Source of the DNA: an uncultured Actinomycetes bacterium
Lineage (GTDB): Bacteria; Actinomycetota; Acidimicrobiia; IMCC26256; DASPTH01
DNA length: 64,000 bases
Direction of reading: 5' to 3'
NCBI GenBank assembly: GCA_963720785.1
Contig: CAVRGQ010000009.1
Location: forward strand, 695,813 to 759,812
Part shown: piece after piece, positions 1 through 49,238 of the stretch
Layout: each line of letters opens with the position of its first letter
Numbering within the stretch: the first letter of the stretch is position 1
The notes under the pieces: generated by a model
What the model saw: the letters and a program-made list of their open reading frames with translations, nothing else
What the model was told of the DNA's origin: nothing
Database searches by the model: none
Program-made: the position numbers and the translations under genes

Positions 1-95
1 CCGTGACGGAACACGAAGTCGGCGATGGCGGCGACGATTCCCGGCCGGTCGGGGCACGACAGCAACAGAACGGCGGTGGGACCCAGGGTGTTCAT
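1..95 (-). CDS. purU: formyltetrahydrofolate deformylase, 5' fragment (gene continues past the left edge)
   Basis: Minus-strand translation from the ATG at 95 gives MNTLGPTAVLLLSCPDRPGIVAAIADFVFRHG. This matches the conserved ACT-domain N-terminus of PurU (LLLxCxDRPGI[IV]AAV). Only 31 codons are visible. Confidence 0.6.
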   Translation of the reverse strand, partial: MNTLGPTAVLLLSCPDRPGIVAAIADFVFRH

Positions 96-175
96 CGGCT
101 GGTGTTCATCGGCTGGTGTTCATCGGCTGGTGTTCATCGGCTGGTGTTCATCGGCTGGTGTGCACCCGATCGGCT
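87..175 (-). repeat. 14-bp tandem repeat (minus strand AGCCGATGAACACC): 5 perfect copies at 87-156 plus one degenerate copy at 157-175
   Basis: Read directly: GGTGTTCATCGGCT lies head-to-tail at 87-100, 101-114, 115-128, 129-142 and 143-156. The array fills most of the spacer between the SDR stop (184) and the purU ATG (95). That ATG is inside the last unit. Confidence 0.95.
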
Positions 176-7547: not shown

Positions 7548-8204
7548 GTGTCCACCGGCGCCACCCTCCCGCTGACTCCCACCACGCCCGCCCAGCGCCG
7601 GCGCCGTGACCTGATCCTCGACACCGCGGTCTCGCTCGTCGAGGAGCGCGGCCCCGACGGCTTCCAGGTGCGCGAGGTGGTCGAGCGCTCCGGCGTCGCC
7701 CTCGGCACGATCTACCGGTACTTCCCGTCGAAGGACCACCTGATCGCCGAGGCGCTCGACCGCGCGACCTCCGACCTGCGCGAGCGCCTCGCGGTCGCCA
7801 CGCGCGACGGCCAGGGCACCGACCCCGCCGAGCGGGTCGCCGTGCTGCTGCAGATCGTCGCCGAGTCCATGGAACGCCGGCCCGGGAACGCCCGGGCGTC
7901 GCTCCAGCTGCTGTTGTCCGCCGACCCGATCGCCGAGGTCGCCCAGCACGACTTCCGCGACGCGTTCGGCGCCGCGCTCGAACTCGCGCTCGCCGACGTC
8001 GAGCCGTCGCTCGCGACCGATCTCAGCGTCGTCGCGTCGTCGTTGCTCACCGAGCACCTCGTCGCCGTCGCAACCGGCCGGCCGAGCGTCGGCGGCACCG
8101 ATCTCCAGATGGAGCGCGGCATCCGAGTGCTGCAACTCGCGATCTCCCGTTCGCGGCCCCCTTCGCACCCAACCGAGTCGAACCGAACAAAGGAAGCACC
8201 ATGA
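7548..8204 (+). CDS. TetR/AcrR family transcriptional regulator
   Basis: 218-aa ORF with the N-terminal HTH FQVREVVERSGVALGTIYRYFPSKDHL. Its stop overlaps the next ATG (ATGA at 8201-8204). Confidence 0.9.
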   Translation: MSTGATLPLTPTTPAQRRRRDLILDTAVSLVEERGPDGFQVREVVERSGVALGTIYRYFPSKDHLIAEALDRATSDLRERLAVATRDGQGTDPAERVAVLLQIVAESMERRPGNARASLQLLLSADPIAEVAQHDFRDAFGAALELALADVEPSLATDLSVVASSLLTEHLVAVATGRPSVGGTDLQMERGIRVLQLAISRSRPPSHPTESNRTKEAP

Positions 8205-9562
8205 CCGACAACTCACCCAGGTACACGGACGCGCCCCGATACGCCGACCGCATGTTCCCCGCGCCGGTCGACCACGGCATCGCCCGCGACGACCGTGCGC
8301 AGAGCACCGTGCTCTCCGGCACCGACGCCGAGTCACTCGGCGGCGGCGAGAACGAACTCTGGTACCACGGTGGTGGCCGGGTCGGCGAGCGACCGGTCGA
8401 GAGCATCACCGTGTACCCGCCGACGCGCGGCCTGCAGACGCAGGGCGACCCGTTCGAGCCGGTGAAGATCGGGATCCTCATCGACATGGACTCCGGCCAG
8501 CTCATCTTCGACTGGGTGAACGCGACCATCCTCGCCATCGAGGACGCGCTCAACGAAGGCGTGTACGACCGACCGGTCGAGATCATCGTCCGGGACGCGC
8601 GCGGCCTCCCGCGCGAGAACTACCTGAAGGTGCGCAAGGGGTACCTCGACCTCGTCGAGCGCGGCTGCGTGGTGATCGTCGGCCCCGAGATCTCCGACAA
8701 CGCGGTCAATCTCATGGACCTGATCAACGAGACCGGTGTGGCCTGTCTGTCGTGGACCGGTGCGGTGCGGTTCTTCGGTGAGTACTGCTTCACCGTGGCC
8801 AACGGCGACATCGGCGTCGAGGGCGGGATGGGCGCCAACTGGTGCGCGCAGCAGGGGTACAAGAAGGTCGGCTTCTTCTGGGAGAAGGGCTCGTCGGGTA
8901 CCGACTACGCCGACTTCTTCCGGCTCGCCGCCGCAACGTACGGCCTCGAGATCGTGAAGGAGGTCGCGCTCGGCCCGAACCCTCGCAACATGGAGGAGCA
9001 CCTCGCCACCATGCGCGCCCAGGGCGCCGAGGCGATCGTGTACATGGGCTACGGCTACGCCACGTTCCACTTCGCACGCGCGTTCAAGGCGCTCGACTGG
9101 GACCCGCCGCGCTTCATGGGCACCGCGTTCATGTTCTACAGCAACACCAACGAGTGGGCCGAGGGCCTCGAGGGCTGGCACGGCGTCGACCAACTCGGCG
9201 TCGACGGTGACAACCCGAACTACGAGGCGATGCTCCAGCGCTTCGAGAAGCGCTTCGGGCGGGTGTCGCGCAACGTCGTGGTCGCGCTGTCGTACGACTC
9301 GGCCCGGGCGGCGATCCACGGCATCGCCAACGCGACCATCGCCATCCCGAAGGAGGTCAAGAACGGCCTCGAGAAGATCAAGTGGATGCCGACCACCAAC
9401 GGTGGGCCCGGCTGCTACCTCACCTTCTCGCAGTACGACCACCGCGGGTACAAGGGCGACTTCCTCACCATCCGCGAACTGCGAGGCGGTGAGCTGCACT
9501 TCCGCGGCTACCACCGCCCGCAGTGGCCGTCGAACCGCTCGTCGCCGATCCTCGACGACTGA
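8201..9562 (+). CDS. type-I periplasmic-binding-protein fold (Leu/Ile/Val-binding / AmiC-like) protein without a signal peptide
   Basis: 453-aa ORF. The PBP1-like core starts at about residue 95 (VKIGILIDMDSG ... VIVGPEISDNA ... YMGYGY). The first 95 or so residues are hydrophilic with no hydrophobic signal segment. An AAAGGAAG RBS precedes the start. Confidence 0.75.
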   Translation: MTDNSPRYTDAPRYADRMFPAPVDHGIARDDRAQSTVLSGTDAESLGGGENELWYHGGGRVGERPVESITVYPPTRGLQTQGDPFEPVKIGILIDMDSGQLIFDWVNATILAIEDALNEGVYDRPVEIIVRDARGLPRENYLKVRKGYLDLVERGCVVIVGPEISDNAVNLMDLINETGVACLSWTGAVRFFGEYCFTVANGDIGVEGGMGANWCAQQGYKKVGFFWEKGSSGTDYADFFRLAAATYGLEIVKEVALGPNPRNMEEHLATMRAQGAEAIVYMGYGYATFHFARAFKALDWDPPRFMGTAFMFYSNTNEWAEGLEGWHGVDQLGVDGDNPNYEAMLQRFEKRFGRVSRNVVVALSYDSARAAIHGIANATIAIPKEVKNGLEKIKWMPTTNGGPGCYLTFSQYDHRGYKGDFLTIRELRGGELHFRGYHRPQWPSNRSSPILDD

Positions 9563-9588
9563 CCACCGGCTCCACCGCAATCCGGACA

Positions 9589-9641
9589 CGGGCCCCCGCC
9601 TCGCCGGGGGCCCGTCCGCGCCAGCTGGGCGCGGACGGGCC
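9589..9641 (+). terminator. two overlapping GC-rich hairpins after the PBP-like gene
   Basis: Hairpin 1: CGGGCCCCC (9589-9597) pairs with GGGGGCCCG (9606-9614). Hairpin 2: GGCCCGTCCGCGCC (9609-9622) pairs with GGCGCGGACGGGCC (9628-9641). The two share 9609-9614, so they are mutually exclusive. There is no U-tract. Confidence 0.45.
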
Positions 9642-9698
9642 GTGACGCGTTACTTTCCTTGGTCAACAAGACCGCGGAGTCCAGGCAAGAGGAGCACC

Positions 9699-10677
9699 GT
9701 GAGCGAAGTCCGCGAGATGACCATCCAGTTCCCGTACAAGCGGTCCCTCGGACCGGTCGTCGGGGCGTTCATGACCGCTCTCACCGAGCAACGGATCATC
9801 GGCATCCGTTGCGGTGACCGCGTCATCTGCCCCCCGATCGAGTGGGACCCCGCAACCGGCGACGAGCTCGCCCACGACTTCGTGGAGGTCGGCCCGGCCG
9901 GCACCGTCGAGTCGTGGAGCTGGGTCGCCAAGCCGTCGGAGCAGCACCCCGTCGACCACCCCTTCGGGTTCGCGCTGATCAAGCTCGACGCCGCGACCAC
10001 GAGCATCCTGCACGCGGTCGACGCCGGCTCGATCGACGCGATGTCCACCGGCATGCGCGTCGCACCTCGCTGGCGGGGCACCCGAATCGGGCACATCAGT
10101 GACATCGAAGCCTTCGTGCCGGGTGAGAGCTTCCGAGGTCGCCGGCGACGACACCGGCCCCGCCGAGGCCCCGGTCGAGATGATGGACTACAACGCGTCC
10201 ATCGCCTACACGCTGCCGGTCACCGCGAACGAGCTGCGCGCCGAGCAGGCGAACGTGGAAGGTCGCTTCCTCGGCCTGAAGTGCCCCAAGTGTGGGCGCC
10301 TCTACACGGGTGGCCGCGGCTTCTGCCCGATCGACTCGATCGAGCTGGGCGAGGCCGACGAGGTCGACCTCCCGCAGAAGGGCGTGATCACCAACTACAC
10401 GATCATCGAGCCGGTGCCCTACCCCGGCCAGACCATGACCGAGCCGTTCGCCCGGGTGATGGTGATGCTCGACGGCGCCGACATCGTCCTCGGGTACCAG
10501 CCCACCATCGACCTCCCGGTCGCCGACCTCCACATCGGCATCCGGGTGGAGGCGGTGTGGGCCTCCGACGCCGAGCTCGACGACCTCGCCTCCACCGCGG
10601 AGGGCCGCCTCCTCGGGTGGATCCCCACGGGTGAGCCCGACGTGACCGACCCCGACCTCGTGAACAGGATCTACTGA
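9699..10677 (+). pseudogene. tandem DUF35 (Zn-ribbon/OB-fold) protein, frame broken once (+1) near 10128-10133
   Basis: GTG at 9699 follows an AAGAGGAG RBS. The first OB-fold half reads in the frame of ORF 9207..10634 (MTIQFPYKRSLGPVVGAFM ... DIEAFVPGE). The second half, with the zinc ribbon CPKCGRLYTGGRGFCP, reads in the frame of ORF 10099..10677. Length is 979 nt = 3n+1. Confidence 0.75.
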
Positions 10678-11747
10678 TGCCCAACGCAGACGACATCGCG
10701 ATCATCGGGTGGAACGTGTCCCCGATGGTCCGTCACACCGACAAGACCGAAGCCCAGATGCTGCTCGAGGTCTGCAGCGGCGCGGTGGAGCACGCCGGCA
10801 TCACCCGCGCCGAGATCGACTTCACCTGTGCGGGCAGCTGCGACTACGTCGCCGGCCAGGCCTTCTCGTTCGTGCAGAACATCGACGCCCTCGGCGCGTG
10901 GCCGCCGAAGCGCGACTCGCACGTCGAGATGGACGGTGCGTGGGCGATGTACGAGGCGTGGCTGCGGCTCCAGATCGGCGACATCGACACCGCGCTCGTC
11001 ATGGGCTCGGGCCGGTCGTCCACCGCTGACCCGACCCTCATCTACCCGATGGAGATGGACCCCTACTACCTCGCGCCGCTCGGCACCGACGCCACGTCGT
11101 TCGCCGCGCTGCAGGCCCGGGCGCTCATCGACGCCGGGCAAGGTCACCGAGCGCCAGATGGCCGAGGTCGCCGCCCGCACCCGGCGTGACGGCAAGGACA
11201 GCCCGTACGCGCAGGTGACCGGCGACTTCGACGTGGACACGCTCCTCGCCGAGGAGTACGTGAACGCGCCGCTGCGCCGCCACGACCTGCCGCCGATCAC
11301 CGACGGCGCGTGCGCGGTCGTGATCGCCCGCGCCGACCGCGCCCGGGAACTGTGCGAGCAACCCGGTGTGGATCACCGGCTTCGCTCACTACACCGAGGC
11401 GCACTACCCCGGCGTGCGCGACCTCACCGAGTCGCCGTCGATCGACCCTCGCCGCCAAGGCCGCAGGCGTCGACGAGGGCCCGATCGAGGTCGCCGAGAT
11501 CCAGGCGGCGTACACCCACGAGGAGCCGCTGCTCGTGGAGGCGCTCGGCCTCGGCGCCGACGTCTCCGTCAACCCGTCGGGTGGCCCGCAGGCCGCGAAC
11601 CCGATCATGGCCACCGGCCTCGTGCGCGTCACCGAGGCGGCGCGCCAGATCCGTGACCTCGGCAAGTCCCGCACCCTGGCCCACAGCACGTCGGGCCCCT
11701 GCCTGCAGCAGAACCTCGTCTGCGTGCTCGAAGGAGACGCGAAGTGA
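10677..11747 (+). pseudogene. thiolase-like (SCP-x/Ltp-type) protein, three +1 frame breaks (about 11139, 11363, 11443)
   Basis: The protein is recovered by reading frame 0 (MPNADDIAIIGWNV ... ALIDAG), then frame 1 (KVTERQMAEVAARTRRDG ... RELCEQP), then frame 2 (VWITGFAHYTEAHYPGVRDLTESPSI), then frame 0 again (TLAAKAAGVDEGPIEVAEIQAAYTHEE ... NPSGG ... LVCVLEG). Each junction shows one extra base. Confidence 0.75.
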
Positions 11748-12913
11748 GCCACCAGCCGTGCGCCATCGTCGGGATCGGCCAGACCCACCACAAGAAGGCG
11801 CGTCGTGACGTGTCGTTCGCCGGCCTCGTCCGCGAAGCCGCGCAGCGGGCGCTCGACGACGCCCACATGACGTGGACCGACATCGACGCCGTCGTGGTCG
11901 GCAAGGCGCCCGACCTGTTCGAGGGCGTCATGAAGCCGGAGCTGTACCTCAGCGACGCGCTCGGCGCGACCGGCAAGCCGATGTTCCGCGTGCACACCGC
12001 CGGTTCGGTCGGCGGCACCACCGGCATCGTCGCGTCGCACCACGTCGAGACCGGGCGCTTCGAGCGCGTGCTCGCGGTCGCGTTCGAGAAGCAGTCGGAG
12101 GGCAACGCGCAGTTCGCCCTCGGTTCGGGCAAGAGCGGATCGCTCGGCGCCGGCGGCGCGTTCGCTCCGTACATGCGGTCGTACATCGCCCGCAGCGGTG
12201 CCCCGATGGACGTCGGCCCGATGGTCGCGGTGAAGGACCGTCTCAACGGCTGCAAGAACGAGTATGCGCACCTCAAGCTCAAGGACATCGACCTGGCGAC
12301 CGTCAAGGCGTCGCCGATGCTCTGGGATCCCGTGCGGTTCCTCGAGTCGTGCCCGTCGTCCGACGGCGCGTGTGCGGCGATCTTCACCAACGAGGCCGGG
12401 GGCAAGGCCGCGGCGGCCGACGGCCGTCAGCCCGCATGGATCCTCGGGTCCGCGGTGCGCTCCGAGCCGTCGACCTTCCCGGGCCGCGACCCGGTCCGCC
12501 CCCAGGGTGCGGTCGACTGCGCGTGGGACGTCTACGGCCAGGCCGGCATCACCAACCCGCGCGAGCAGATCGACTGCGCGGAGCTGTACGTGCCGTTCTC
12601 GTGGTACGAGCCGATGTGGCTCGAGGCCCACGACATCGCCGCACCCGGCGAGGGCTGGCAGATGACCGAGCGGGGCGACACCGCGCTCGGCGGCTCGTTC
12701 CCGGTCAACATGTCGGGCGGCGTGCTCTCGTCGAACCCGATCGGCGCGTCGGGCCTGCTCCGCTTCACCGAAGCGGCGCTGCAGGTGCGGGGCATGGCCG
12801 GCGAGCACCAGGTGGAGGGCGCCAAGGTCGCCCTCGCCCAGGCCTACGGCGCTGCCGCGCAGTACTTCTCGATGTGGGTCGTGTCGAGCTCCCTCGACCC
12901 CTTCGGCAACTAG
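11744..12913 (+). CDS. thiolase-like (SCP-x/Ltp-type) protein
   Basis: 389-aa intact ORF whose GTG overlaps the upstream stop. It has the thiolase-fold C-terminal motifs NMSGGVLSSNPIGASG and GAKVALAQAYG. At the usual nucleophile-Cys position it reads HTAGSVGG (alignment by eye). Confidence 0.85.
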   Translation: MSHQPCAIVGIGQTHHKKARRDVSFAGLVREAAQRALDDAHMTWTDIDAVVVGKAPDLFEGVMKPELYLSDALGATGKPMFRVHTAGSVGGTTGIVASHHVETGRFERVLAVAFEKQSEGNAQFALGSGKSGSLGAGGAFAPYMRSYIARSGAPMDVGPMVAVKDRLNGCKNEYAHLKLKDIDLATVKASPMLWDPVRFLESCPSSDGACAAIFTNEAGGKAAAADGRQPAWILGSAVRSEPSTFPGRDPVRPQGAVDCAWDVYGQAGITNPREQIDCAELYVPFSWYEPMWLEAHDIAAPGEGWQMTERGDTALGGSFPVNMSGGVLSSNPIGASGLLRFTEAALQVRGMAGEHQVEGAKVALAQAYGAAAQYFSMWVVSSSLDPFGN

Positions 12914-12930
12914 CCCCACCCTCTTCTCTT

Positions 12931-12981
12931 CGAACCGGCGTCAATCCCTGCCCACTATGGGCTCGGATTGACGCCGGTTCG
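12931..12981. repeat. 51-bp nested palindromic element, copy 1 (also a likely bidirectional terminator)
   Basis: CGAACCGGCGTCAATCC-CTGCCCACTATGGGCTC-GGATTGACGCCGGTTCG. The outer arms are 16-17 bp and the centre is an inner palindrome GCCCA-cta-TGGGC. It lies between convergent genes ending at 12913 (+) and 13006 (-). Confidence 0.85.
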
Positions 12982-13005
12982 TCGCGTCAGGCCGCCCGGT
13001 CGTGG

Positions 13006-13773
13006 CTAGGCCATCCAGACGCCGGAGTTGACGTCGAGGGTCTGGCCGGTGATCGAGCGGGCGCGCGCGGACGCGAGGAACACCACCGCGTCGGCGAGGT
13101 CGTCGGGGGTCGGGAGCCGCCGCAACGCCGTGTCCTTCGCGTAGTGCGCGAGCACCGCGTCGACGGTGGTGCCGCGCCGCTCGGCCTGCCGGGCGAACAT
13201 CTCGTCGGTGTTCGGGCCGGGCACGAACCCGGGCAGCACGATGTTGACGCGGATGTTCTCGGGGCCGACCTCCTTGGCCAGCGTCTGCATCGCGAGCTGC
13301 AGGGCACCCTTGGTCGCGGCGTACGCACCCTGCCCCGGGTTGACGGCCCGCACCGCGAGCGTGGACACCGCGACGATCGCGCCCCCGCCGGCCTCCTGGA
13401 AGTGCGGGATCGCGGCGCGGCACAGCTCGAGCGGGCCGAGCACGTTGACCTCCCACGCGCGCTGCCAGTCGGCAAGATCGGCGTTCACGATCGTGTGGTT
13501 CGGACTGCCCTTCGCCGCACTACTCACCACCACGTCGAGCCGGCCCAGCTCGGACGCGGCCCGCTCGACCAGCGCACGGCACTGCCCGACGTCGCCGGTG
13601 TCGGTCGGCACCACGAGCGCTCGACGGCCGAGCGCCTCGACCTCTGCGGCCACTTCCTCGAGGTACGACTGCGTGCGCGCCGCGAGGGCCACGTCGCACC
13701 CGTCGCGCGCGAGGCCCAGGGCGATCGATCGCCCGATGCCCGGCCCGACGCCCGTCACCACTGCCACTCTCAT
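13006..13773 (-). CDS. SDR family oxidoreductase
   Basis: ORF 13006..13860 trimmed to the ATG at 13773 (GGAGGTG RBS): MRVAVVTGVGPGIGRSIA..., with YAATKGAL. Its ATG overlaps the stop of marR (ATGA). Confidence 0.9.
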   Translation of the reverse strand: MRVAVVTGVGPGIGRSIALGLARDGCDVALAARTQSYLEEVAAEVEALGRRALVVPTDTGDVGQCRALVERAASELGRLDVVVSSAAKGSPNHTIVNADLADWQRAWEVNVLGPLELCRAAIPHFQEAGGGAIVAVSTLAVRAVNPGQGAYAATKGALQLAMQTLAKEVGPENIRVNIVLPGFVPGPNTDEMFARQAERRGTTVDAVLAHYAKDTALRRLPTPDDLADAVVFLASARARSITGQTLDVNSGVWMA

Positions 13774-14261
13774 TGCCCACCTCCGGGATTCGGGCCGGTG
13801 AAGTCGTCGGCCATGCGTGCGAGCAGCCGAGCCAACGTGGCGAGCTCGTCGGCGCGCCACCCGGCGAGGGCGGCGTCGGCCGCGGCCACCGACGACTCCT
13901 TCAGTCGGCGGTAGGCCGCGCGCCCCGCCGGCGTCACCGACACCACGACGGCGCGGCCGTCGACCCGGTCGGCGGTGCGCGCGACGAGGCCCTGGCGTTC
14001 GAGGCCCCGCAGCTCCCGGCTCACGTGGCTGCCGAGCAGCCCGGTGGCCGCGGCAATCGCGGAGACCCGCTGCGGCCCGCTGCGCGCCAGCGCGCCGAGC
14101 ACCCCCATCCCGGGGCTCGACACGTCGACGCCGGCCGTGACCGCCCGACGCCGGGCCGCCGCGACGCTCGATCCCACCCGCCCGATCCGGGCCATCGACC
14201 GCTCGATCATCTCCAGGGACTCGGCCCGTCGCATCCGGCGAGCGTACTTCCTATGATGCAC
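13770..14261 (-). CDS. MarR family transcriptional regulator
   Basis: 163-aa ORF with a winged-helix region GPQRVSAIAAATGLLGSHVSRELRGLERQGLVAR. The start is GTG at 14261, with an alternative ATG at 14234. Confidence 0.85.
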   Translation of the reverse strand: MHHRKYARRMRRAESLEMIERSMARIGRVGSSVAAARRRAVTAGVDVSSPGMGVLGALARSGPQRVSAIAAATGLLGSHVSRELRGLERQGLVARTADRVDGRAVVVSVTPAGRAAYRRLKESSVAAADAALAGWRADELATLARLLARMADDFTGPNPGGGQ

Positions 14262-14268
14262 GGAGTTT

Positions 14269-14283
14269 GCTGACTCAGTCAGC
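14269..14283. promoter_or_regulatory. candidate MarR operator, inverted repeat GCTGAC-TCA-GTCAGC
   Basis: Perfect 6-3-6 palindrome in the 46-bp divergent spacer between marR (14261) and the SDR gene (14308). Confidence 0.45.
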
Positions 14284-14307
14284 TATCTGGACGCACCTGG
14301 GGGAACC

Positions 14308-15099
14308 ATGGCAGAGGGAAGACTTGCCGGCCGCGTGGCCGTGATCACCGGATCGGGCGAGGGCATCGGCCGCGCGATCGCGCAACGCTTCGCCGAGGAG
14401 GGCGCCAACCTGGTGATCGCCGAGATCAACCCCGAGCTGGGTGAGGCCGCTGCCGCGGAGCTCGGCACCGTCACCGAGACCCGCTTCGTGCGCACCGATG
14501 TCGGCAGCAAGGCCGACAATCAGGCGATGGTCGCCGCCGCGCTCGACGCGTGGGGTCGCCTCGACATCCTCGTGAACAACGCATGGGGCGGCGGGGAGCT
14601 CAGCCGGGTGGAGAACAAGTCCGACGAGCTGATCGACCACGGGCTCGCGATCGGCTTCCGCGGCCCGCTGTGGGCGATGCAGGCGGCGTTCCCCGTGATG
14701 AAGGCGCAGGGCTACGGCCGCGTGATCAACCTCTGCTCGCTCAACGGCGTGAACGCGCACATGGGCTCGCTCGAGTACAACACCGCCAAGGAGGCGCTGC
14801 GCTCGGCCACGCGCACCGCAGCGCGTGAATGGGCGCCCACCGGCATCGTGTGCAACGTGATCTGCCCGGGCGCGAAGTCGGCATCGTTCCTGCGCGTGAT
14901 GGGCGAACACCCCGAGCTGCTCGCCGCGGCGGATGCCGGCAACCCGATGGGCCGCATCGGCGACCCGTACGACGACATCTCGCCGGTCGCGCTCTTCCTC
15001 GCCAGCGACGACTGCCGCTACATGACCGGCAACACGCTCTTCGTCGACGGCGGCGGCCACATCAACGGCGTGTCCTGGGCCCCCGACCTGCCCGAATGA
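14308..15099 (+). CDS. SDR family oxidoreductase
   Basis: 263-aa ORF with the TGSGEGIGRAIA, NNAWGG and YNTAKEAL motifs. Confidence 0.9.
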   Translation: MAEGRLAGRVAVITGSGEGIGRAIAQRFAEEGANLVIAEINPELGEAAAAELGTVTETRFVRTDVGSKADNQAMVAAALDAWGRLDILVNNAWGGGELSRVENKSDELIDHGLAIGFRGPLWAMQAAFPVMKAQGYGRVINLCSLNGVNAHMGSLEYNTAKEALRSATRTAAREWAPTGIVCNVICPGAKSASFLRVMGEHPELLAAADAGNPMGRIGDPYDDISPVALFLASDDCRYMTGNTLFVDGGGHINGVSWAPDLPE

Positions 15100-15114
15100 G
15101 CCGGCCCTCAGTAG

Positions 15115-15165
15115 CGAACCGGCGTCAATCGCTGCCCATAATGGGCACGGATTGACGCCGGTTCG
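15115..15165. repeat. 51-bp nested palindromic element, copy 2 (also a likely bidirectional terminator)
   Basis: CGAACCGGCGTCAATCG-CTGCCCATAATGGGCAC-GGATTGACGCCGGTTCG. About 47 of 51 positions match copy 1. It lies between convergent genes ending at 15099 (+) and 15168 (-). Confidence 0.85.
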
Positions 15166-15167
15166 GA

Positions 15168-15740
15168 TCAGGAGGGCGTGACACCGTCCGGGGGCCACGC
15201 CTCGGGACGGTCACCGTCGAGCGGCACCTCGAGCGCGGCCAGGATCGTGGCCAACCCCGCGTAGAAGCCGGGGATCGCCAGCAACTCCACGTAGGCCTCG
15301 TCGCTCCCGGCGACTTCGCGCGCCGATGTGAGCAGGGCGTCGTCGGGTTGGGCACCGGCCACGACGACGTCGACCACCTGCAGCACCACGCGCACGTCGT
15401 CGGGCAGGCCGGGTGCACCCCATCCCCCGCGCACCGCGACGATCTCGTCGTCGCTCATGCCCAGGCGCGCGCAGATCGCGTAGTGCGACGTCCACTCGTA
15501 CACCGAGCCCCGCAGCCACGCGGTGCGCATGATCGCGAGCTCGCGCAGACGCGCGTCGAGCACGCTGTCGAGCACGACCGCCTGCACCAGCTTCGCCACG
15601 ATGTCGGCGACCGGCGGATGGCGCAACAGCACGCGGAACACGTTGGGCCCCGCGAGCATCTCGGGGATGCCGGCCTCACGCGCCGCCGCCACCGCCTCCT
15701 CGGGAGGGAGCGGCGGGAGTGCCGGTCGCCCGGTGGTCAC
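15168..15740 (-). CDS. carboxymuconolactone decarboxylase (AhpD-like) family protein
   Basis: 190-aa ORF. LRELAIMRTAWLRGSVYEWTSHYAICARLGMSDDEI is typical of the CMD family. It lies 5 nt downstream of the aldehyde dehydrogenase. Confidence 0.75.
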   Translation of the reverse strand: MTTGRPALPPLPPEEAVAAAREAGIPEMLAGPNVFRVLLRHPPVADIVAKLVQAVVLDSVLDARLRELAIMRTAWLRGSVYEWTSHYAICARLGMSDDEIVAVRGGWGAPGLPDDVRVVLQVVDVVVAGAQPDDALLTSAREVAGSDEAYVELLAIPGFYAGLATILAALEVPLDGDRPEAWPPDGVTPS

Positions 15741-15745
15741 CCGGC

Positions 15746-17230
15746 TCAGCCGTTCCCGAACACGACGTGCTTGGCCTGCTGGAATGCCCGCAGTCCGAGC
15801 ACACCGCGCTCGCGCCCCACGCCACTGTTCTTGTAGCCGCCCATCGGCGTGTAGCTGTTGGCGAGCCCGGTGTTGACCTGCACGGTGCCCGTGCGGATCC
15901 GCGCGGCAAGGTCGCTCGCGGTGTCGAGATCGGCGGTGTACACGCCGGCCGAGAGGTCGTACTGCGAGTCGTTGGTGATGGCGACGGCCTCGTCGAGGTC
16001 GCCGTAGCCCTGCACGGTGACGACCGGGCCGAAGATCTCCTGCTGGGCCAGCGGGTTCGCGTTGTCGTCGATGTCGACGACAGTGGGCTCGAAGTAGAAG
16101 CCCCGCTCCATGTGCTCGGGCCGCTTGCCCCCGGTGACCACTCGTCCGCCCGCGGCGACACCCTCGGCCACGAGCCGCTCGATGCGGTCGCGCGATCCCG
16201 CCGACACGACCGGCCCGAGCACGGTGGCGGCGTCCTGCGGGTCACCGATGGTGATGGTGGGCCCGACGGCGGCGAGCGCGTCGAGCACGGCGGCCTTGCG
16301 GGCATGGGGCACGAGCATTCGCGTCTGCAACGAGCACCCCTGGCCCGCGTGCGCCATGAACACCGCCATCGCGCCGCCCACCGCCTTCGCGGGGCCGGCA
16401 TCGAGCGCGTCGTCGAGGTAGAGCTGCACGCTCTTGCCGCCCAACTCGAGGATGAGCCGCTTCATCGACGGTGCCGCCTGCGCGCCGATCGCCGCGCCGA
16501 CCCCGCTCGACCCGGTGAAGCTCACGAGGTCGACACCCGGGTGGGTGGACAGGCGTGCCGCGCCGTCGGGGCCGCCCTCGATCAGCACGTTCACGACGCC
16601 CGGCGGCAGGCCCGCCTCCTCGGCGGCCTCCGCGTAGGCGAGCGCCTCGAGCGGCGTCTGCGGGCTCGGCCGCAACACCACGGTGCAGCCCGCCATGAGC
16701 GCGGGCGTGAGCTTCCAGACGTTGGTGGTGAACGGGAAGTTCGACGGCGTGATCGCGGCGACGACGCCGACCGGCTCCCAGCGCCGGGTCGACACCTTCA
16801 CGGCACGCGCGCCGATGAGGTGCGGGAAAGGCACCTCGTTGTGCTCCCACTCGGGGAGCGGCAACGCGAGGTCGACCATCTCGCGGGACGCGTTGAGGCC
16901 GAAGCCGACCTGCATCATCTGCGCCATGGTGCGCGTGGCGCCGGCCTCGACGATCACCGACTCCACGAGCACGTCGTTGCGCGCGTGCAGCGCGTCGGAC
17001 AGCCGGTGCATCGCCGCAGCGCGCTCGGCCATCGACATGCGCGGCCAGGGACCGTCGTCGAACGCCCGGCGTGCCGCGCCGATCGCGGCGTCGAACTGGG
17101 CCGCCGACGACGCCTCCACCTCGAACCCGATCTCCTCGGTGGCGGGGTTCACGACGCCCAGGGCACCGGCGTCACCGGCGAGGAACCGCCCGTCGACGAA
17201 GGGGCTGCGGGCGGCGACGAGATCGGTCAT
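15746..17230 (-). CDS. aldehyde dehydrogenase family protein
   Basis: ORF 15746..17293 trimmed to the ATG at 17230 (MTDLVAARSPF...). It has the ELGGKS and catalytic-Cys GQGCS motifs and FTGSSGVG. Confidence 0.9.
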   Translation of the reverse strand: MTDLVAARSPFVDGRFLAGDAGALGVVNPATEEIGFEVEASSAAQFDAAIGAARRAFDDGPWPRMSMAERAAAMHRLSDALHARNDVLVESVIVEAGATRTMAQMMQVGFGLNASREMVDLALPLPEWEHNEVPFPHLIGARAVKVSTRRWEPVGVVAAITPSNFPFTTNVWKLTPALMAGCTVVLRPSPQTPLEALAYAEAAEEAGLPPGVVNVLIEGGPDGAARLSTHPGVDLVSFTGSSGVGAAIGAQAAPSMKRLILELGGKSVQLYLDDALDAGPAKAVGGAMAVFMAHAGQGCSLQTRMLVPHARKAAVLDALAAVGPTITIGDPQDAATVLGPVVSAGSRDRIERLVAEGVAAGGRVVTGGKRPEHMERGFYFEPTVVDIDDNANPLAQQEIFGPVVTVQGYGDLDEAVAITNDSQYDLSAGVYTADLDTASDLAARIRTGTVQVNTGLANSYTPMGGYKNSGVGRERGVLGLRAFQQAKHVVFGNG

Positions 17231-17333
17231 GCGGGCCTCCGGGCCTCGGACGGTGCGGTCCGCGCACACTACCGAGGGGGCCGGGCGGCCCACAACGTGC
17301 CGCCCTTGATGGCCGCCTCGCGAGCTCCCCGGC

Positions 17334-17807
17334 CTAGAGGAAGGCGGCGGTGGAGCCGCCGACCGGCATCTCGGCCTGGCCGAGCTTGCGGTGGTCCCAC
17401 GAGCGCACCCGCTCGGCGTCGATCCGCACGATGACGCGCTTGTTCATCATGATCTCGACGAACGGGCGCATCTCCTCGGTGTACGGGCCCTGATAGCGCT
17501 CGAAGACGCTCACCCCGGCGGCCCAGTACTCGTCGTCGGTGGTGTCGTCGATGATGTGCGCGGTCCCCTCGATCGACACGCCGCGCAGCTGGTCGTAGCT
17601 GAGGCCCGCCTCGACCATGCCGACGATGCGCGGGTCGCGCCGCAGGTTCGCGGCCTTCTGCGACTTCGCCTTCGTCTCGAAGTACACCTTGCCGTCGATC
17701 AGGCCGTACCACATCGCCACGAGGTGGGGCATGCCGTCGGGCCCGATCGTCGCCATCGTCATGGTGCGCGTCTGCTCGAGCATCGCCGCGACCTCGGCGT
17801 CGGTCAT
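17334..17807 (-). CDS. PPOX-class (pyridoxamine 5'-phosphate oxidase-like) probable F420-dependent enzyme
   Basis: ORF 17334..18035 trimmed to the ATG at 17807: MTDAEVAAMLEQTRTMTMATIGPDGMPHLVAMWYGLIDGKVYFETKAKSQKAANLRRDPR, typical of the family. Confidence 0.75.
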   Translation of the reverse strand: MTDAEVAAMLEQTRTMTMATIGPDGMPHLVAMWYGLIDGKVYFETKAKSQKAANLRRDPRIVGMVEAGLSYDQLRGVSIEGTAHIIDDTTDDEYWAAGVSVFERYQGPYTEEMRPFVEIMMNKRVIVRIDAERVRSWDHRKLGQAEMPVGGSTAAFL

Positions 17808-17913
17808 CGTGATCTGGCTGCGCTGGTTGGTCCCCACCGAGGTGCTCCTGGTCGTCGCTGTACGTTTGCCGCTCACGCTACCCCGCACGCCGTTCACCCC
17901 GAGGAGGGGCGTC

Positions 17914-18903
17914 ATGGCCCTGGCCGCCGTCTGCACCGCGCTCACCGGCGAGGACTCCATCGAGATCCGGGACTGGCCCGTGCGCGAGCCCGGGCCCGGC
18001 GAACTGAAGCTCGCGGTCCGCGCGGCATCGGTCAACTTCCCCGACGTGCTGATGGTGCGGGGCCTCTACCAGCAACGCCAGGTTCCGCCGTTCGTGCCCG
18101 GCTCCGAGGGCGCCGGGGTCGTCACCGCGGTGGGCGACGACGTCGAGGGATTCGCGCCCGGCGACCGGGTGCTGCTGATCGGCGGCGCGACCTTCGCGAC
18201 GGAGCTCGTCACCCGCGTCTCGCCCGGCCTCGTGCACCGCATCCCCGACGACATGCCCTTCGCCGAGGCCGCCGCCTTCGCGCTCACCTACGGCACCGCC
18301 TACAACGCGCTCGTCACGCGGGGCGCGGTGCGCGAGGGCGAGACGGTGCTGGTCACCGGCGCCGCGGGCGGGGTCGGCTCCGCCGCCGTCGAGGTCGCGA
18401 AGGCGAGCGGCGCCCGGGTGATCGCGGTGGTCGGCGGCGCCGAGAAGGCCGCGCTGGCACGTGAGCTCGGGGCCGACGCGGTGATCGACCACACCACGGT
18501 CGACGCGCTCGCCCCCGCGGTGAAGGAGCTCACCGACGGTCGCGGCGTCGACCTGTTCTGCGACAACGTCGGCGGCGCTGACGCGCGCGACCTGTTGCGC
18601 TGCGTCGGGTGGAACGGCCGCTTCCTCGTCGTCGGCTTCGCGGGCGGCGAGATCCCCGTGTTCAAGGCCAACCAGACGATCCTCAAGTGCATCTCGATCG
18701 TGGGCGTGGCCTACGGCATGTCGGCGATCCTCGACCCGGACACCGCCCGACGCGAGATCGACGCGCTGTTCGGCTGGTACCGCGAGGGCAAGGTGCGGCC
18801 CGCGGTCACCGCCCGCTTCCCCCTCGCGCAGACGGCCGACGCGCTGCGCGTGCTGCAGGAGCGGCGCGCACTCGGCAAGGTCGTCGTGGAGATGCCCGCC
18901 TAG
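17914..18903 (+). CDS. NADPH:quinone oxidoreductase / zinc-type alcohol dehydrogenase superfamily (MDR) protein
   Basis: ATG at 17914 after a GAGGAGGGG RBS. It has GSEGAGVV, the VTGAAGGVGSAAV Rossmann motif, and C-terminal LGKVVV. Confidence 0.9.
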   Translation: MALAAVCTALTGEDSIEIRDWPVREPGPGELKLAVRAASVNFPDVLMVRGLYQQRQVPPFVPGSEGAGVVTAVGDDVEGFAPGDRVLLIGGATFATELVTRVSPGLVHRIPDDMPFAEAAAFALTYGTAYNALVTRGAVREGETVLVTGAAGGVGSAAVEVAKASGARVIAVVGGAEKAALARELGADAVIDHTTVDALAPAVKELTDGRGVDLFCDNVGGADARDLLRCVGWNGRFLVVGFAGGEIPVFKANQTILKCISIVGVAYGMSAILDPDTARREIDALFGWYREGKVRPAVTARFPLAQTADALRVLQERRALGKVVVEMPA

Positions 18904-19322
18904 GACGTCGCCACGGCGGGGTCGTACGCGGGGCCCGGCACGTCGGAGTCGGTACCCATCTCGGGCCCCATGTTCGTGACCGGCGGCGACGTCGTCAACC
19001 GGTCCGCGTCCGGGCCGCGCCGGGATCGGAGGACCGCGAGCACGACCACCCCGGCGGCCGCTGCGAGGACAACGCCCCAGGCGAGCCGGCGCGTCGCCGT
19101 GGCGCGCTTCGCCTTCGCCTGCTTCGCCTGTGCCTTCGCCCGCGGGTCGTGGGAATCGAGGCCGCTGCGCACGCGCTGCGCGACCTCGTGGGCCACGTCA
19201 CCCGCGAGCGACTTCACCTCGTCGGTGACCGTGCCTGCGTAGTCGGCGGCGTGCGCCGCGACGCTCTCCGCCATGTCCTTCGCGTCCGAGACGTGCACCT
19301 GCGTCATGAGCCGTTCCTCCAA
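18900..19322 (-). CDS. hypothetical membrane-anchored protein
   Basis: 140-aa ORF with an acidic/helical N-terminal half, a Lys/Ala-rich stretch, one predicted TM segment (LAWGVVLAAAAGVVVLAVL), and a Pro-rich tail. The start may be the second Met (19307). Confidence 0.5.
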   Translation of the reverse strand: MEERLMTQVHVSDAKDMAESVAAHAADYAGTVTDEVKSLAGDVAHEVAQRVRSGLDSHDPRAKAQAKQAKAKRATATRRLAWGVVLAAAAGVVVLAVLRSRRGPDADRLTTSPPVTNMGPEMGTDSDVPGPAYDPAVATS

Positions 19323-40436: not shown

Positions 40437-40450
40437 CCCTCTCGCTCGCC

Positions 40451-40500
40451 GAGCACGTGACAGTTGGGTGCCGTATGGACCCCTCAACTGTCACTTGCTC
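40451..40500. terminator. bidirectional hairpin between convergent genes
   Basis: GAGCACGTGACAGTTGGG (40451-40468) pairs with CCTCAACTGTCACTTGCTC (40482-40500), about 16 of 18 bp. It lies between the gene ends at 40436 (+) and 40513 (-). Confidence 0.6.
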
Positions 40501-40512
40501 GGGCAGAGCGGG

Positions 40513-49184: not shown

Positions 49185-49238
49185 CCGTTTTGGCGTCACC
49201 AGAGGTCGCTATAGCGGCGCGTGGTGACGCCAAAACGG
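49185..49238. repeat. 54-bp nested palindrome between convergent genes (likely bidirectional terminator), with architecture related to the 51-bp elements
   Basis: CCGTTTTGGCGTCACCA (49185-49201) pairs with TGGTGACGCCAAAACGG (49222-49238). The centre contains the inner palindrome CGCTATAGCG. It shares the GGCGTCA...TGACGCC core with the elements at 12931 and 15115. Confidence 0.75.

What the first reader, a model, noticed from the sequence alone, without database searches (positions are those of the whole stretch)
12931..15165. Near-identical 51-bp nested palindromes at two different convergent gene junctions (a REP-like element family?)
12931-12981 and 15115-15165 share about 47 of 51 positions. 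Both have outer arms CGAACCGGCGTCAATC / GATTGACGCCGGTTCG that enclose an inner palindrome TGCCCA-N3-TGGGCA (GCCCA-cta-TGGGC in copy 1). Both sit exactly between convergently transcribed genes, so they would fold into hairpins of more than 20 bp on either transcript and act as bidirectional terminators. Ordinary intrinsic terminators are not conserved in sequence between unrelated junctions 2 kb apart. This conservation suggests a dispersed repeat family (REP/BIME-like), possibly one with a dedicated binding protein for the inner 15-bp palindrome. I cannot tell from one window how many copies the genome holds.
Basis: seen in the sequence. Interest (0 to 1): 0.6.

Follow-up and report, generated by a model that had tools for sequence, protein, structure and literature searches.

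The report
Hairpin repeat family tied to nuclease
The two 51-bp palindromes are real copies of a small dispersed hairpin-repeat family in uncultured Acidimicrobiia that sits at gene ends, and in related contigs the same repeat brackets a predicted DNA-binding nuclease gene, an arrangement like REP elements and their transposase that I did not find described.

Summary
W1 (12931-12981) and W2 (15115-15165) match at 47 of 51 positions. Their 16-nt arms are identical, and each fills a convergent gene junction.

They belong to a family ("E") found at unrelated junctions in two Acidimicrobiia/Actinomycetes MAGs and about 12 metagenome contigs. Every copy lies within 35 nt of a stop codon. The arms stay nearly invariant. 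The inner 19 nt varies but remains a small hairpin with compensatory changes.

Copy number is low: 2-3 exact-core copies per MAG. W2 is cleanly absent in two close relatives, with no target-site duplication. The W1 core was replaced in the window lineage.

The unexpected result concerns a ~310-aa gene. It combines an AbiEi-like DNA-binding module with a Vsr/I-Bth0305I-like nuclease domain. In all five unbiased look-ups it is bracketed by two such hairpins 1005-1034 bp apart. One E-gene-E unit sits at an unrelated locus, and its boundaries fall exactly at the outer E ends. A distant homologue is bracketed by a different hairpin family that shares the GGCGTCAATC core.

My best reading is a REP/RAYT-like partnership with a different enzyme. 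W1 and W2 would be solo copies that probably act as U-tract-less 3'-end hairpins. Terminator activity, protein binding and the nuclease's presence in this genome are untested.

The parts
12931..12981 (.). E element copy W1. It is a 51-bp two-tier palindrome: 16-bp outer stem, short internal loop, 5-bp inner stem, 3-nt loop. The family's asymmetric core form (CG-AGCCCA-TAG-TGGGCA-GG) reads on the - strand.
   Evidence: CM 77.9 bits. The core is 18/19 identical to the copy next to the nuclease gene in L090/L095.
15115..15165 (.). E element copy W2, with the same arms and the core GC-TGCCCA-TAA-TGGGCA-CG.
   Evidence: 74.8 bits. It is present at the orthologous site in STL-ACT8 and cleanly absent in L140/L141 and L129.
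11744..12913 (+). Thiolase-like (SCP-x type) gene. Its stop codon lies 18 nt upstream of W1.
13006..13776 (-). Short-chain dehydrogenase gene. Its stop codon lies 25 nt from W1 and it converges on the thiolase gene.
13770..14237 (-). MarR-family regulator gene, between the two elements.
14308..15099 (+). Short-chain dehydrogenase gene. Its stop codon lies 16 nt upstream of W2.
15168..15740 (-). Carboxymuconolactone-decarboxylase-family gene. Its stop codon lies 3 nt from W2.
49185..49238 (.). H3, another two-tier hairpin of the same architecture at a convergent junction (CCGTTTTGGCGTCACC...GGTGACGCCAAAACGG). It shares the GGCGTCA core and may be a distant relative of E.
   Evidence: 25.4 bits; -42.9 kcal/mol, z -6.9.
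40449..40502 (.). H4, a 54-nt hairpin at a convergent junction with similar architecture and a different sequence.
   Evidence: (18.2 bits).

Best explanation
W1 and W2 are two solo copies of a 51-bp two-tier palindromic repeat (E) found in a clade of uncultured Acidimicrobiia.

Shown: E is a discrete unit. It occurs at unrelated gene junctions in several genomes, always next to a stop codon. It can be present or absent with exact boundaries and no target duplication. Its outer 16-bp arms are held nearly constant, while the inner hairpin changes by compensatory substitution or wholesale replacement.

Shown in related contigs: the same repeat, in direct orientation, brackets a conserved ~310-aa gene. 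That gene encodes an AbiEi-like DNA-binding module fused to a Vsr/I-Bth0305I-like nuclease domain whose putative catalytic residues are invariant. The hairpin variant changes as the protein diverges.

Inferred: the protein binds the conserved inverted arms through its AbiEi-like module, as AbiEi antitoxins bind inverted repeats. Its nuclease activity, followed by repair or gene conversion between copies, would keep the arms uniform, swap cores, and occasionally add or remove copies. This resembles REP elements and their flanked RAYT gene, but with a different enzyme.

Inferred: at the W1 and W2 junctions the transcribed element forms a very stable hairpin on either strand. That hairpin would block read-through or 3' exonucleases for both convergent transcripts, although it is not a canonical intrinsic terminator.
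For: Family and location:
- An exact-pattern scan of 185,579 species genomes gave 5 loci in 2 MAGs. All have full 16-nt arms and a 19-nt core.
- The metagenome scan added about 12 E contigs.
- All 25 tabulated copies lie within 35 nt of a stop codon, and most junctions are convergent.

Conservation:
- In the syntenic STL-ACT8 locus (87% nt identity) both sites keep the arms at 62 of 64 positions, while the cores are unrelated.
- Covariation is seen in the inner stem (score 0.110 against 0.067, 0 of 500 shuffles).
- Covariation is also seen in the outer stem: C6-G46 becomes T-A, and CG/CG becomes TT/AA.

Turnover:
- W2 is absent in L140/L141 (..GGTAG|TCAGCGG..) and in L129, but present in the window and in L001.
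- The W1 core in L140 is of the STL-ACT8 type, whereas the window core matches the nuclease-flanking copy at 18 of 19 positions.

Nuclease link:
- E pairs about 1005 bp apart bracket one gene in L031, L090 and L095.
- All five unbiased look-ups of homologues (53-77% identity) are bracketed by two about 51-nt hairpins. These ten sites are the only CM hits with E<1e-3 in those loci.
- L135 carries the unit at an unrelated locus. Homology ends exactly at the outer E ends, and its up-E and down-E carry position-specific features.
- A homologue of 25-30% identity is bracketed by a different 63-nt family that shares the GGCGTCAATC core and has at least 9 dispersed copies at gene ends.

Protein:
- The AF2 model has pLDDT 91.7.
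- Foldseek matches AbiEi (6y8q, E 1e-4) and the I-Bth0305I catalytic domain (3r3p, probability 1.0, TM 0.72).
- D238, E249, H256, D265, R268 and R269 are invariant.

Precedents: AbiEi binds inverted repeats (PMC7319586). I-Bth0305I is a homodimer with an about 60-bp footprint (PMC3239194).
Against: - The nuclease gene was not found in the 64-kb window. I could not show it in the window genome or in the two MAGs that carry E. Co-occurrence rests only on shared metagenome samples.
- Copy number is far below that of classical REPs.
- The arm conservation seen in scan-derived copies is partly imposed by the search patterns.
- PD-(D/E)XK nucleases are not known to mobilise hairpins, and no mechanism of insertion is demonstrated.
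- The nuclease gene is syntenic at the dedA-hppA junction from 53% to 100% identity. The hairpins there could simply insulate that gene.
- The element has no U-tract. Mycobacterial RNA polymerase needs one for intrinsic termination (title and abstract of PMC3993855), so terminator activity is doubtful.
- A strand-bias test comparing G.U with A.C mismatches was inconclusive.
Confidence: 0.5

Rival explanations
1. E elements are only host 3'-end or terminator hairpins. Their sequence would be conserved because a host factor reads the double-stranded RNA stem, as was proposed for mycobacterial TRIT. The nuclease gene would be one of many genes that happen to carry them.
For: Copies lie strictly next to stop codons, mostly at convergent junctions. 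The hairpins are very stable on both strands. Copies persist for long periods at orthologous sites. Other unrelated two-tier hairpins sit at the remaining wide convergent junctions of the window. TRIT is a precedent (PMC3152330).
Against: This does not explain why five of five nuclease homologues are bracketed on both sides by the family, when only about 4 such hairpins occur per 64 kb. It does not explain the E-gene-E unit moving as a block, or a second hairpin family pairing with a distant homologue. It does not explain the exact 51-bp presence/absence at W2. There is no U-tract.
Confidence: 0.22
2. The conserved inverted arms are operator sites of an AbiEi-like regulator. On this view E marks a small regulon or acts as a roadblock site, with no mobility.
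For: The N-terminal two-thirds of the bracketed protein matches AbiEi. AbiEi proteins bind inverted repeats to autoregulate (PMC7319586). One hairpin lies 35-50 nt upstream of the gene's start codon.
Against: Most copies lie at convergent 3' ends, where initiation cannot be controlled. Covariation in both stems points to base-pairing and not to half-site reading. The nuclease residues are invariant. Presence/absence polymorphism and the transposed unit remain unexplained.
Confidence: 0.12
3. W1 and W2 are site-specific recombination sites, like attC or pdif, that bracket a mobile SDR-MarR-SDR gene module.
For: Pairs of E bracket 1-2 kb segments in the window, L001 and L080. The repeats flanking the nuclease gene are in direct orientation.
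Against: The three-gene module keeps its place in four relatives, whether or not W2 is present. No empty thiolase/CMD junction was found. No integrase or recombinase appears among the window genes scanned. There are no attC R/L boxes, no extrahelical bases, no cassette arrays, and no 28-bp dif-like organisation.
Confidence: 0.05
4. The pair is a remnant of a local segmental duplication, or a chance similarity.
For: Only two strong copies occur in the 64-kb window.
Against: The same element occurs at unrelated loci in other genomes. Nothing outside the 51 bp is duplicated. Chance is excluded (z about -8).
Confidence: 0.01

Closest known systems
REP/REPIN elements with their flanked RAYT gene (Proteobacteria; Nunvar 2010 and Ton-Hoang 2012 from my own knowledge; Di Nocera 2013, PMC3733652)
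   Same: Both are short palindromic extragenic repeats lying downstream of genes, between convergent or co-directional ORFs. In both, a single conserved nuclease-type gene is itself bracketed by two copies of the repeat. In both, the repeat variant appears to differ with the lineage of the gene.
   Different: - The E enzyme is an AbiEi-like wHTH plus Vsr/PD-(D/E)XK-like nuclease, not an HUH Y1 transposase.
- The element is 51 bp with a two-tier stem, against 20-40 bp.
- It has no unpaired GTAG or CGTC tag.
- The flanking copies are direct, not inverted.
- There are a few to perhaps tens of copies, not hundreds.
- The host is an actinobacterium. PMC3733652 does not mention Actinobacteria in its main text and notes that CGTC REPs lack a dedicated transposase.
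TRIT, the 'tuberculosis Rho-independent terminator' motif of Mycobacterium (Gardner et al. 2011, PMC3152330)
   Same: Both are sequence-conserved palindromic hairpins in an actinobacterium. Both are bidirectional, tightly associated with stop codons and often overlap them. Neither has a classical U-tract. In both cases the conservation was taken to imply an extra factor.
   Different: TRIT has 147 copies in M. tuberculosis and is reported only in Mycobacterium. No associated gene is described for it. I could not compare sequences, because no TRIT sequence or model was available to me. Its terminator activity is also unproven.
EDxHD/Vsr-like homing endonuclease I-Bth0305I (PMC3239194)
   Same: The C-terminal domain of the bracketed protein has the same fold. 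I-Bth0305I is a multidomain homodimer that footprints about 60 bp around a pseudopalindrome, which is close to the size and symmetry of E.
   Different: I-Bth0305I is encoded in a phage group I intron and homes into recA. The gene here is free-standing, bracketed by complete palindromes, and largely syntenic. No homing site or intron is involved.
AbiEi antitoxin of type IV AbiE toxin-antitoxin systems (PMC7319586)
   Same: The N-terminal ~200 residues share the fold. AbiEi binds inverted repeats.
   Different: No AbiEii (DUF1814) toxin gene lies next to the gene in the loci whose gene calls were listed. The antitoxicity partner is replaced by a fused nuclease domain.

Membership tests
REP/BIME elements | Short (20-40 nt) imperfect palindrome with a single stem of 8-15 bp | tested here: not met
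   The element is 51 nt with a 16-bp outer stem plus a 5-6 bp inner stem.
REP/BIME elements | High copy number (hundreds per genome) | tested here: not met
   The exact-core scan found 3 and 2 copies in the two MAGs that carry E and 2 in this 64-kb window. Imperfect copies were missed, so these are lower bounds. One metagenome sample (Ga0214473) yielded 7 copies on 5 contigs.
REP/BIME elements | Extragenic, mostly downstream of genes between convergent or co-directional ORFs | tested here: met
   All 25 tabulated copies lie within 35 nt of a stop codon.
REP/BIME elements | Unpaired GTAG or CGTC tag at one end (PMC3733652) | tested here: not met
   There is no GTAG. CGTC is present at positions 9-12, but it is internal and base-paired.
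REP/BIME elements | Associated RAYT (Y1 HUH transposase) gene flanked by REPs | tested here: not met
   No RAYT appears among the about 56 window gene products scanned. The gene flanked by E elsewhere is an AbiEi/Vsr-like nuclease. The whole genome could not be scanned.
Canonical intrinsic terminator | GC-rich hairpin followed by a U-tract | tested here: not met
   The hairpin is present, but neither strand has a T run. The terminator scan found 0 sites in 9000-19000.
TRIT-like conserved terminator motif | Conserved palindromic hairpin in a narrow position range around stop codons, on both strands | tested here: met
   Stop codons abut or overlap the element in W2, L001b, L002, L005, L033, L058 and the nuclease gene.
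TRIT-like conserved terminator motif | Sequence homology to the Mycobacterium TRIT model | not testable with these tools
   The Rfam search gave no relevant hit, and no TRIT sequence was available to me.
Integron attC site | R''/L''-L'/R' boxes (RYYYAAC...GTTRRRY), extrahelical bases, cassette arrays and a nearby intI | tested here: not met
   The ends are CGAACC/GGTTCG and the outer stem is perfectly paired. At most two copies lie together. No integrase appears among the window genes scanned.
MITE | Terminal inverted repeats flanked by a target-site duplication | tested here: not met
   The flanks of 21 copies show no duplication. The filled and empty W2 sites differ by exactly the element: TAG|E|TCAGGG in L001 against TAG|TCAGCGG in L140.
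AbiE type IV toxin-antitoxin (for the associated gene) | AbiEi antitoxin gene in an operon with an AbiEii DUF1814 nucleotidyltransferase gene | tested here: not met
   The AbiEi fold is present. The neighbouring genes are dedA, hppA, ETF-QO, whiB and hpaB, and none is DUF1814.
EDxHD/Vsr-like nuclease (for the associated gene) | Vsr-like catalytic fold with conserved acidic and His residues | tested here: met
   Foldseek matches 3r3p with probability 1.0 and TM 0.72, and also 3hrl. D238, E249, H256 and D265 are invariant. Pfam DUF559 and MTES_1575 give weak hits. Enzymatic activity was not tested.

The most novel reading that the evidence does not exclude
A large, essentially unannotated protein family fuses an AbiEi-like DNA-binding module to a Vsr/EDxHD-like nuclease. 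It has 4,985 50%-identity cluster representatives at E<=1e-30. On this reading it is the cognate enzyme of families of long palindromic hairpin repeats in Actinobacteria and other soil bacteria. Each gene would be bracketed by two copies of its own repeat, whose conserved core (GGCGTCAATC in E and F2, GCGTC more widely) is the protein's recognition site. Solo copies such as W1 and W2 would be seeded at gene ends and homogenised by nuclease-driven repair. This would be a second, enzymatically unrelated solution to the REP-RAYT lifestyle.
Probability: 0.4. Interest if true: 0.85.

Novelty: new variant of a known kind. Interest (0 to 1): 0.66.

Why it matters
REP-like repeats and their RAYT genes are a main model for how short non-coding repeats persist in bacterial genomes, and so far that model rests on one enzyme class. 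Suppose palindromic repeats in Acidimicrobiia, and at least one other lineage, are paired with an AbiEi-Vsr nuclease. Several things would then follow:

- A family of thousands of uncharacterised proteins, currently called 'DUF559' or 'very-short-patch-repair endonuclease', would gain a concrete and testable substrate.
- The sequence conservation of U-tract-less 'terminator' hairpins in Actinobacteria, which is the puzzle raised by TRIT, would have a candidate explanation.
- A natural long-target, palindrome-recognising nuclease would be defined.

For genome annotation, these elements mark gene 3' ends and can extend ORF calls, because several ORFs read into the element and stop at the TGA inside the arm GATTGACGCC.

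Tried and rejected
- Rfam at permissive E-values gave nothing relevant.
- The promoter and terminator consensus scan gave nothing.
- Retrieving the source contig failed. Neither the window SDR product nor the 100%-identical thiolase P0001 (on an 871-kb contig) is on record for DNA retrieval, so genome-wide copy number and the presence of the nuclease in this genome could not be checked. P0015's contig had no DNA held.
- Plasmid and phage collections gave no match to the element or to the nuclease protein.
- NCBIfam and PDB sequence searches gave nothing for the nuclease. Only the fold search was informative.
- A strand-of-function test compared G.U with A.C mismatches. It gave 8:5 on the oriented alignment, while copies oriented by the nuclease gene leaned the other way (my reading). 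I judged it inconclusive and dropped it.
- Target-site duplications and an extended flank consensus were sought. There is no TSD. A CGCGA flank next to some copies (W1, L001a, L026 and the nuclease-downstream copies) is suggestive but not consistent.
- I considered a remnant right arm at the L129 W2 site. It is probably just CMD coding sequence.
- The -35-like TTGACG in the arm was checked as a possible promoter for the nuclease gene. No convincing -10 follows it, by inspection of the sequences.
- The attC, pdif and MITE readings were rejected on the features listed in the membership table.
- The literature searches found no paper linking DUF559 or AbiEi nucleases with palindromic repeats. That library is incomplete.
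Full report
**Observation.**
- W1 (12931-12981) and W2 (15115-15165) match at 47 of 51 positions.
- Their 16-nt arms, CGAACCGGCGTCAATC and GATTGACGCCGGTTCG, are identical and perfectly complementary.
- The repeat finder lists the pair independently (I6). The exact arm occurs only at these two sites in 64 kb.
- Either strand of either copy folds into a hairpin of 22-23 bp. As RNA the energy is -43.7 to -48.5 kcal/mol with z about -8. As DNA it is -27 kcal/mol with z about -10.
- Both junctions are convergent. W1 lies between the thiolase-like gene (+) and an SDR gene (-). W2 lies between a second SDR gene (+) and a CMD-family gene (-). A MarR gene lies between the two elements.
- Neither strand has a T-tract after the hairpin, and the terminator scan finds nothing. 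Rfam has no match.

**A family, not a local duplication.** I scanned one genome for each of 185,579 species for CCGGCGTCAATC-N15-23-GATTGACGCCGG.
- The scan found five loci in two MAGs: Acidimicrobiia STL-ACT8 and 'uncultured Actinomycetes' MFD02134.bin.2.164. All five have the full 16-nt arms and a spacer of exactly 19 nt.
- A looser metagenome scan required only the inner 10-mer of each arm.
- These loci share nothing with the window except the element.
- Every one of 25 tabulated copies lies within 35 nt of a stop codon. Several abut or overlap one. Most junctions are convergent and a few are co-directional.
- Copy number is low: 3 and 2 exact-core copies in the two MAGs, and 2 in this window. 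The covariance model R1 finds no other strong copy in the window.
- One metagenome sample (Ga0214473) gave 7 copies on 5 contigs.

**What is conserved.** I oriented the copies by an asymmetry in the core. The core consensus is C[A/G]-[A/T/G]GCCC[A/T]-NNN-[A/T]GGGCA-GG.
- The inner stem shows compensatory changes such as GCCCA/TGGGC to GCCCT/AGGGC and CGCA/TGCG. The covariation score is 0.110 against 0.067 in shuffles, exceeded by 0 of 500 shuffles.
- Arm conservation in scan-derived copies is partly imposed by the search pattern. The unbiased evidence therefore comes from orthologous sites.
- STL-ACT8 locus L001 is syntenic with window 8036-16128 at 87% identity. It carries an element at both sites, with 62 of 64 arm positions conserved and both 19-nt cores unrelated to those of the window.
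- Over longer distances the outer stem also changes by compensation. C6-G46 becomes T6-A46, with T.G and C.A intermediates. CG/CG becomes TT/AA in L129, L137 and L139, and L136 is a half-changed intermediate.
- Pairing is therefore selected in both tiers, yet the arm sequence is held fixed over moderate divergence.

**Turnover at the window's own sites.** Relatives were fetched through thiolase homologues. Over 6.5 kb the tree is ((window, L140 at 92.9%), L129 at 87.5%, L001 at 86.9%).
- W1 site:
  - L140 has an E with one change per arm. Its core, AGGTCGCATTCTGCGGCTC, matches the STL-ACT8 copy at 14 of 19 positions.
  - The window core differs from that type. It matches at 18 of 19 positions an E copy found next to a nuclease gene in contigs L090 and L095.
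  - The core was therefore replaced in the window lineage while the flanking genes stayed 95-97% identical.
  - L129 has a different hairpin of the same architecture.
- W2 site:
  - The element is present in the window and in L001.
  - It is absent in L140/L141 (..GGTAG|TCAGCGG..) and in L129.
  - The filled site in L001 (TAG|E|TCAGGG) differs from the empty site by exactly the 51 bp, with no target-site duplication.
- E is thus a discrete unit of gain or loss. Two losses and two gains are equally parsimonious.
- More distant relatives (L126, L130) have other genes after the thiolase gene and no E there.

**The associated gene.** In L031, L090 and L095 a second E lies about 1 kb from the first.
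- The pair brackets one ~310-aa gene inserted between dedA and hppA. The gene's last 13 codons and its stop codon lie inside the downstream E.
- The protein has weak Pfam hits to DUF559, MTES_1575, AbiEi_4 and AbiEi_1.
- A 34-sequence alignment shows invariant D238, E249, S252, H256, D265, R268 and R269.
- An AlphaFold model (pLDDT 91.7) matches two solved structures. Its first ~200 residues match the S. agalactiae AbiEi antitoxin (6y8q, E 1e-4). Its last ~105 residues match the catalytic domain of the Vsr-like homing endonuclease I-Bth0305I (3r3p, probability 1.0, TM 0.72) and NGO0050 (3hrl).
- I then looked up five homologues, choosing them only for contig length.
  - L134 (77% identity) sits at dedA-hppA.
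  - L135 (77%) sits at an unrelated ETF-QO locus.
  - L136 (58%) and L139 (53%) sit at dedA-hppA.
  - L137 (54%) sits at whiB-hpaB.
  - All five are bracketed by two about 51-nt two-tier hairpins, 1005-1034 bp apart start to start.
  - These ten sites are the only CM hits below E = 1e-3 in those loci.
- The hairpin variant changes with the protein. The close homologues carry E itself. L139 and L137 carry CGAAGTTGCGTCG... . L136 carries intermediates.
- In L135, homology to the dedA-hppA units begins and ends exactly at the outer ends of the two E copies. Its upstream E also shares derived characters (T6/A46 and A36) with the upstream E of L134. The whole E-gene-E block therefore moved or was copied as a unit.
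- The two copies are direct repeats in the gene's orientation.
- A homologue of 25-30% identity in L042/L065 is bracketed by a different 63-nt hairpin family, F2 (CCGTGAGG-GGCGTCAATC-TGGTCTCTGG...). F2 has at least nine further copies at gene 3' ends, in contigs from the same sample series.
- The protein family is large: 4,985 cluster representatives at E<=1e-30.

**Interpretation.** The arrangement parallels REP elements and their RAYT gene: a conserved nuclease-type gene bracketed by two copies of a palindrome that is also scattered at gene ends. The enzyme, however, is unrelated.
- AbiEi proteins bind inverted repeats (PMC7319586).
- I-Bth0305I is a homodimer that footprints about 60 bp around a pseudopalindrome (PMC3239194).
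- A dimer could therefore plausibly read the two conserved arms of a 51-bp palindrome and act near its centre.
- Nuclease-triggered repair between copies would explain the uniform arms, the swapped cores and the occasional gain or loss of copies.
- These mechanistic steps are inference. I could not show the gene in the window genome. It is not in the window, and co-occurrence rests only on shared samples.
- The role of W1 and W2 at their junctions is also inferred. The hairpins are very stable, fill the gap between convergent stop codons, and persist at orthologous sites. This fits a bidirectional barrier or 3'-end protection.
- They lack the U-tract that mycobacterial RNA polymerase requires at intrinsic terminators (PMC3993855).
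- The closest actinobacterial analogue is TRIT. It is a conserved, stop-codon-hugging palindrome whose conservation was taken to imply an unknown factor (PMC3152330).

**Comparison and novelty.** E fails several defining tests for REP/BIME: size, tag, copy number and RAYT association. It also fails the tests for attC, MITE and canonical terminators (see the membership table).
- It works like a REP-RAYT pair, but it is not a member of that family.
- The literature searches found no description linking DUF559 or AbiEi nucleases to palindromic repeats.
- The REP survey PMC3733652 does not mention Actinobacteria in its main text. It notes that CGTC REPs lack a dedicated transposase.
- I rate the finding a new variant of a known kind.

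**Limits.**
- The collection scans were exact-match and capped, so copy numbers are lower bounds.
- The shared GGCGTCAATC core of E and F2 was imposed by my pattern, and no control scan was possible.
- The window's genome could not be retrieved.
- No transcript or biochemical data exist for these elements.

Noticed in passing
window 49185-49238 and 40449-40502: Two further 54-nt two-tier hairpins fill convergent junctions. All four convergent gaps of 68-92 nt in the window hold one such hairpin, while the other convergent gene pairs overlap or have shorter gaps (at most 61 nt) and no such hairpin. H3 (CCGTTTTGGCGTCACC...) shares the GGCGTCA core with E. A similar hairpin, CGTTTTGGCGCCGCAA..., sits at a convergent junction in L126 2214-2264.
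   Followed up: partly
window 73-170: A tandem array of a 14-nt unit (GGTGTTCATCGGCT, about 6 copies) lies at the very start of the window, just before the 3' end of a minus-strand SDR gene (184-981).
   Followed up: no
window 14270-14282: A perfect palindrome, CTGACTCAGTCAG, lies in the 70-nt divergent gap between the MarR gene and the SDR gene 14308-15099. It is a plausible MarR operator.
   Followed up: no
L009, L057, L063, L091, L094, L111 (all from sample Ga0247727): A 39-nt perfect palindrome, GGCGTCAATCGACCTCGATAATCGAGGTCGATTGACGCC, is present on six large contigs of one metagenome with unrelated flanks. This is another multi-copy hairpin family with the same 10-mer core. No nuclease homologue was seen in the stretches held.
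   Followed up: partly
L015, L096, L117, L119 (CXWL01 contigs): A 51-nt family, CATACC-GGCGTCAATC-N19-GATTGACGCC-GGTATG, has the same length and 13-nt core as E (CM 33-42 bits). Its ends differ and its core does not form a hairpin.
   Followed up: no
L004 (JAXLRL010000062.1, 2.5 kb) vs L003 5846-5896: A short STL-ACT8 contig is a diverged reverse-complement copy of the L003 region, including its E element, which lies after a thiolase-like paralogue. It may be a strain variant or a real second copy. Several STL-ACT8 ORFs also look frameshifted.
   Followed up: no
one search hit table: Most homologues of the bracketed nuclease gene sit on very short contigs (1-3 kb). This would be expected if the flanking repeats or multiple gene copies break assemblies.
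   Followed up: no
L002 391-2484(-), L005 4880-6546(+), nuclease genes in L031/L090/L095/L134/L135: Open reading frames that run into an E element translate it as ..TNRRQS.P..G(R)D and stop at the TGA inside GATTGACGCC. The element can therefore supply C-terminal residues and the stop codon, and can mislead gene callers.
   Followed up: partly
window 1-64000 gene content: The window is a dense lipid/steroid-type catabolic region. It encodes several thiolase-like/ChsH2 OB-fold pairs, acyl-CoA dehydrogenases, a P450, many SDRs, CMD-family proteins, AMP-ligases and TetR/MarR regulators, with many internal paralogues (for example inverted repeats I1 and I2). No mobile-element genes were seen.
   Followed up: partly
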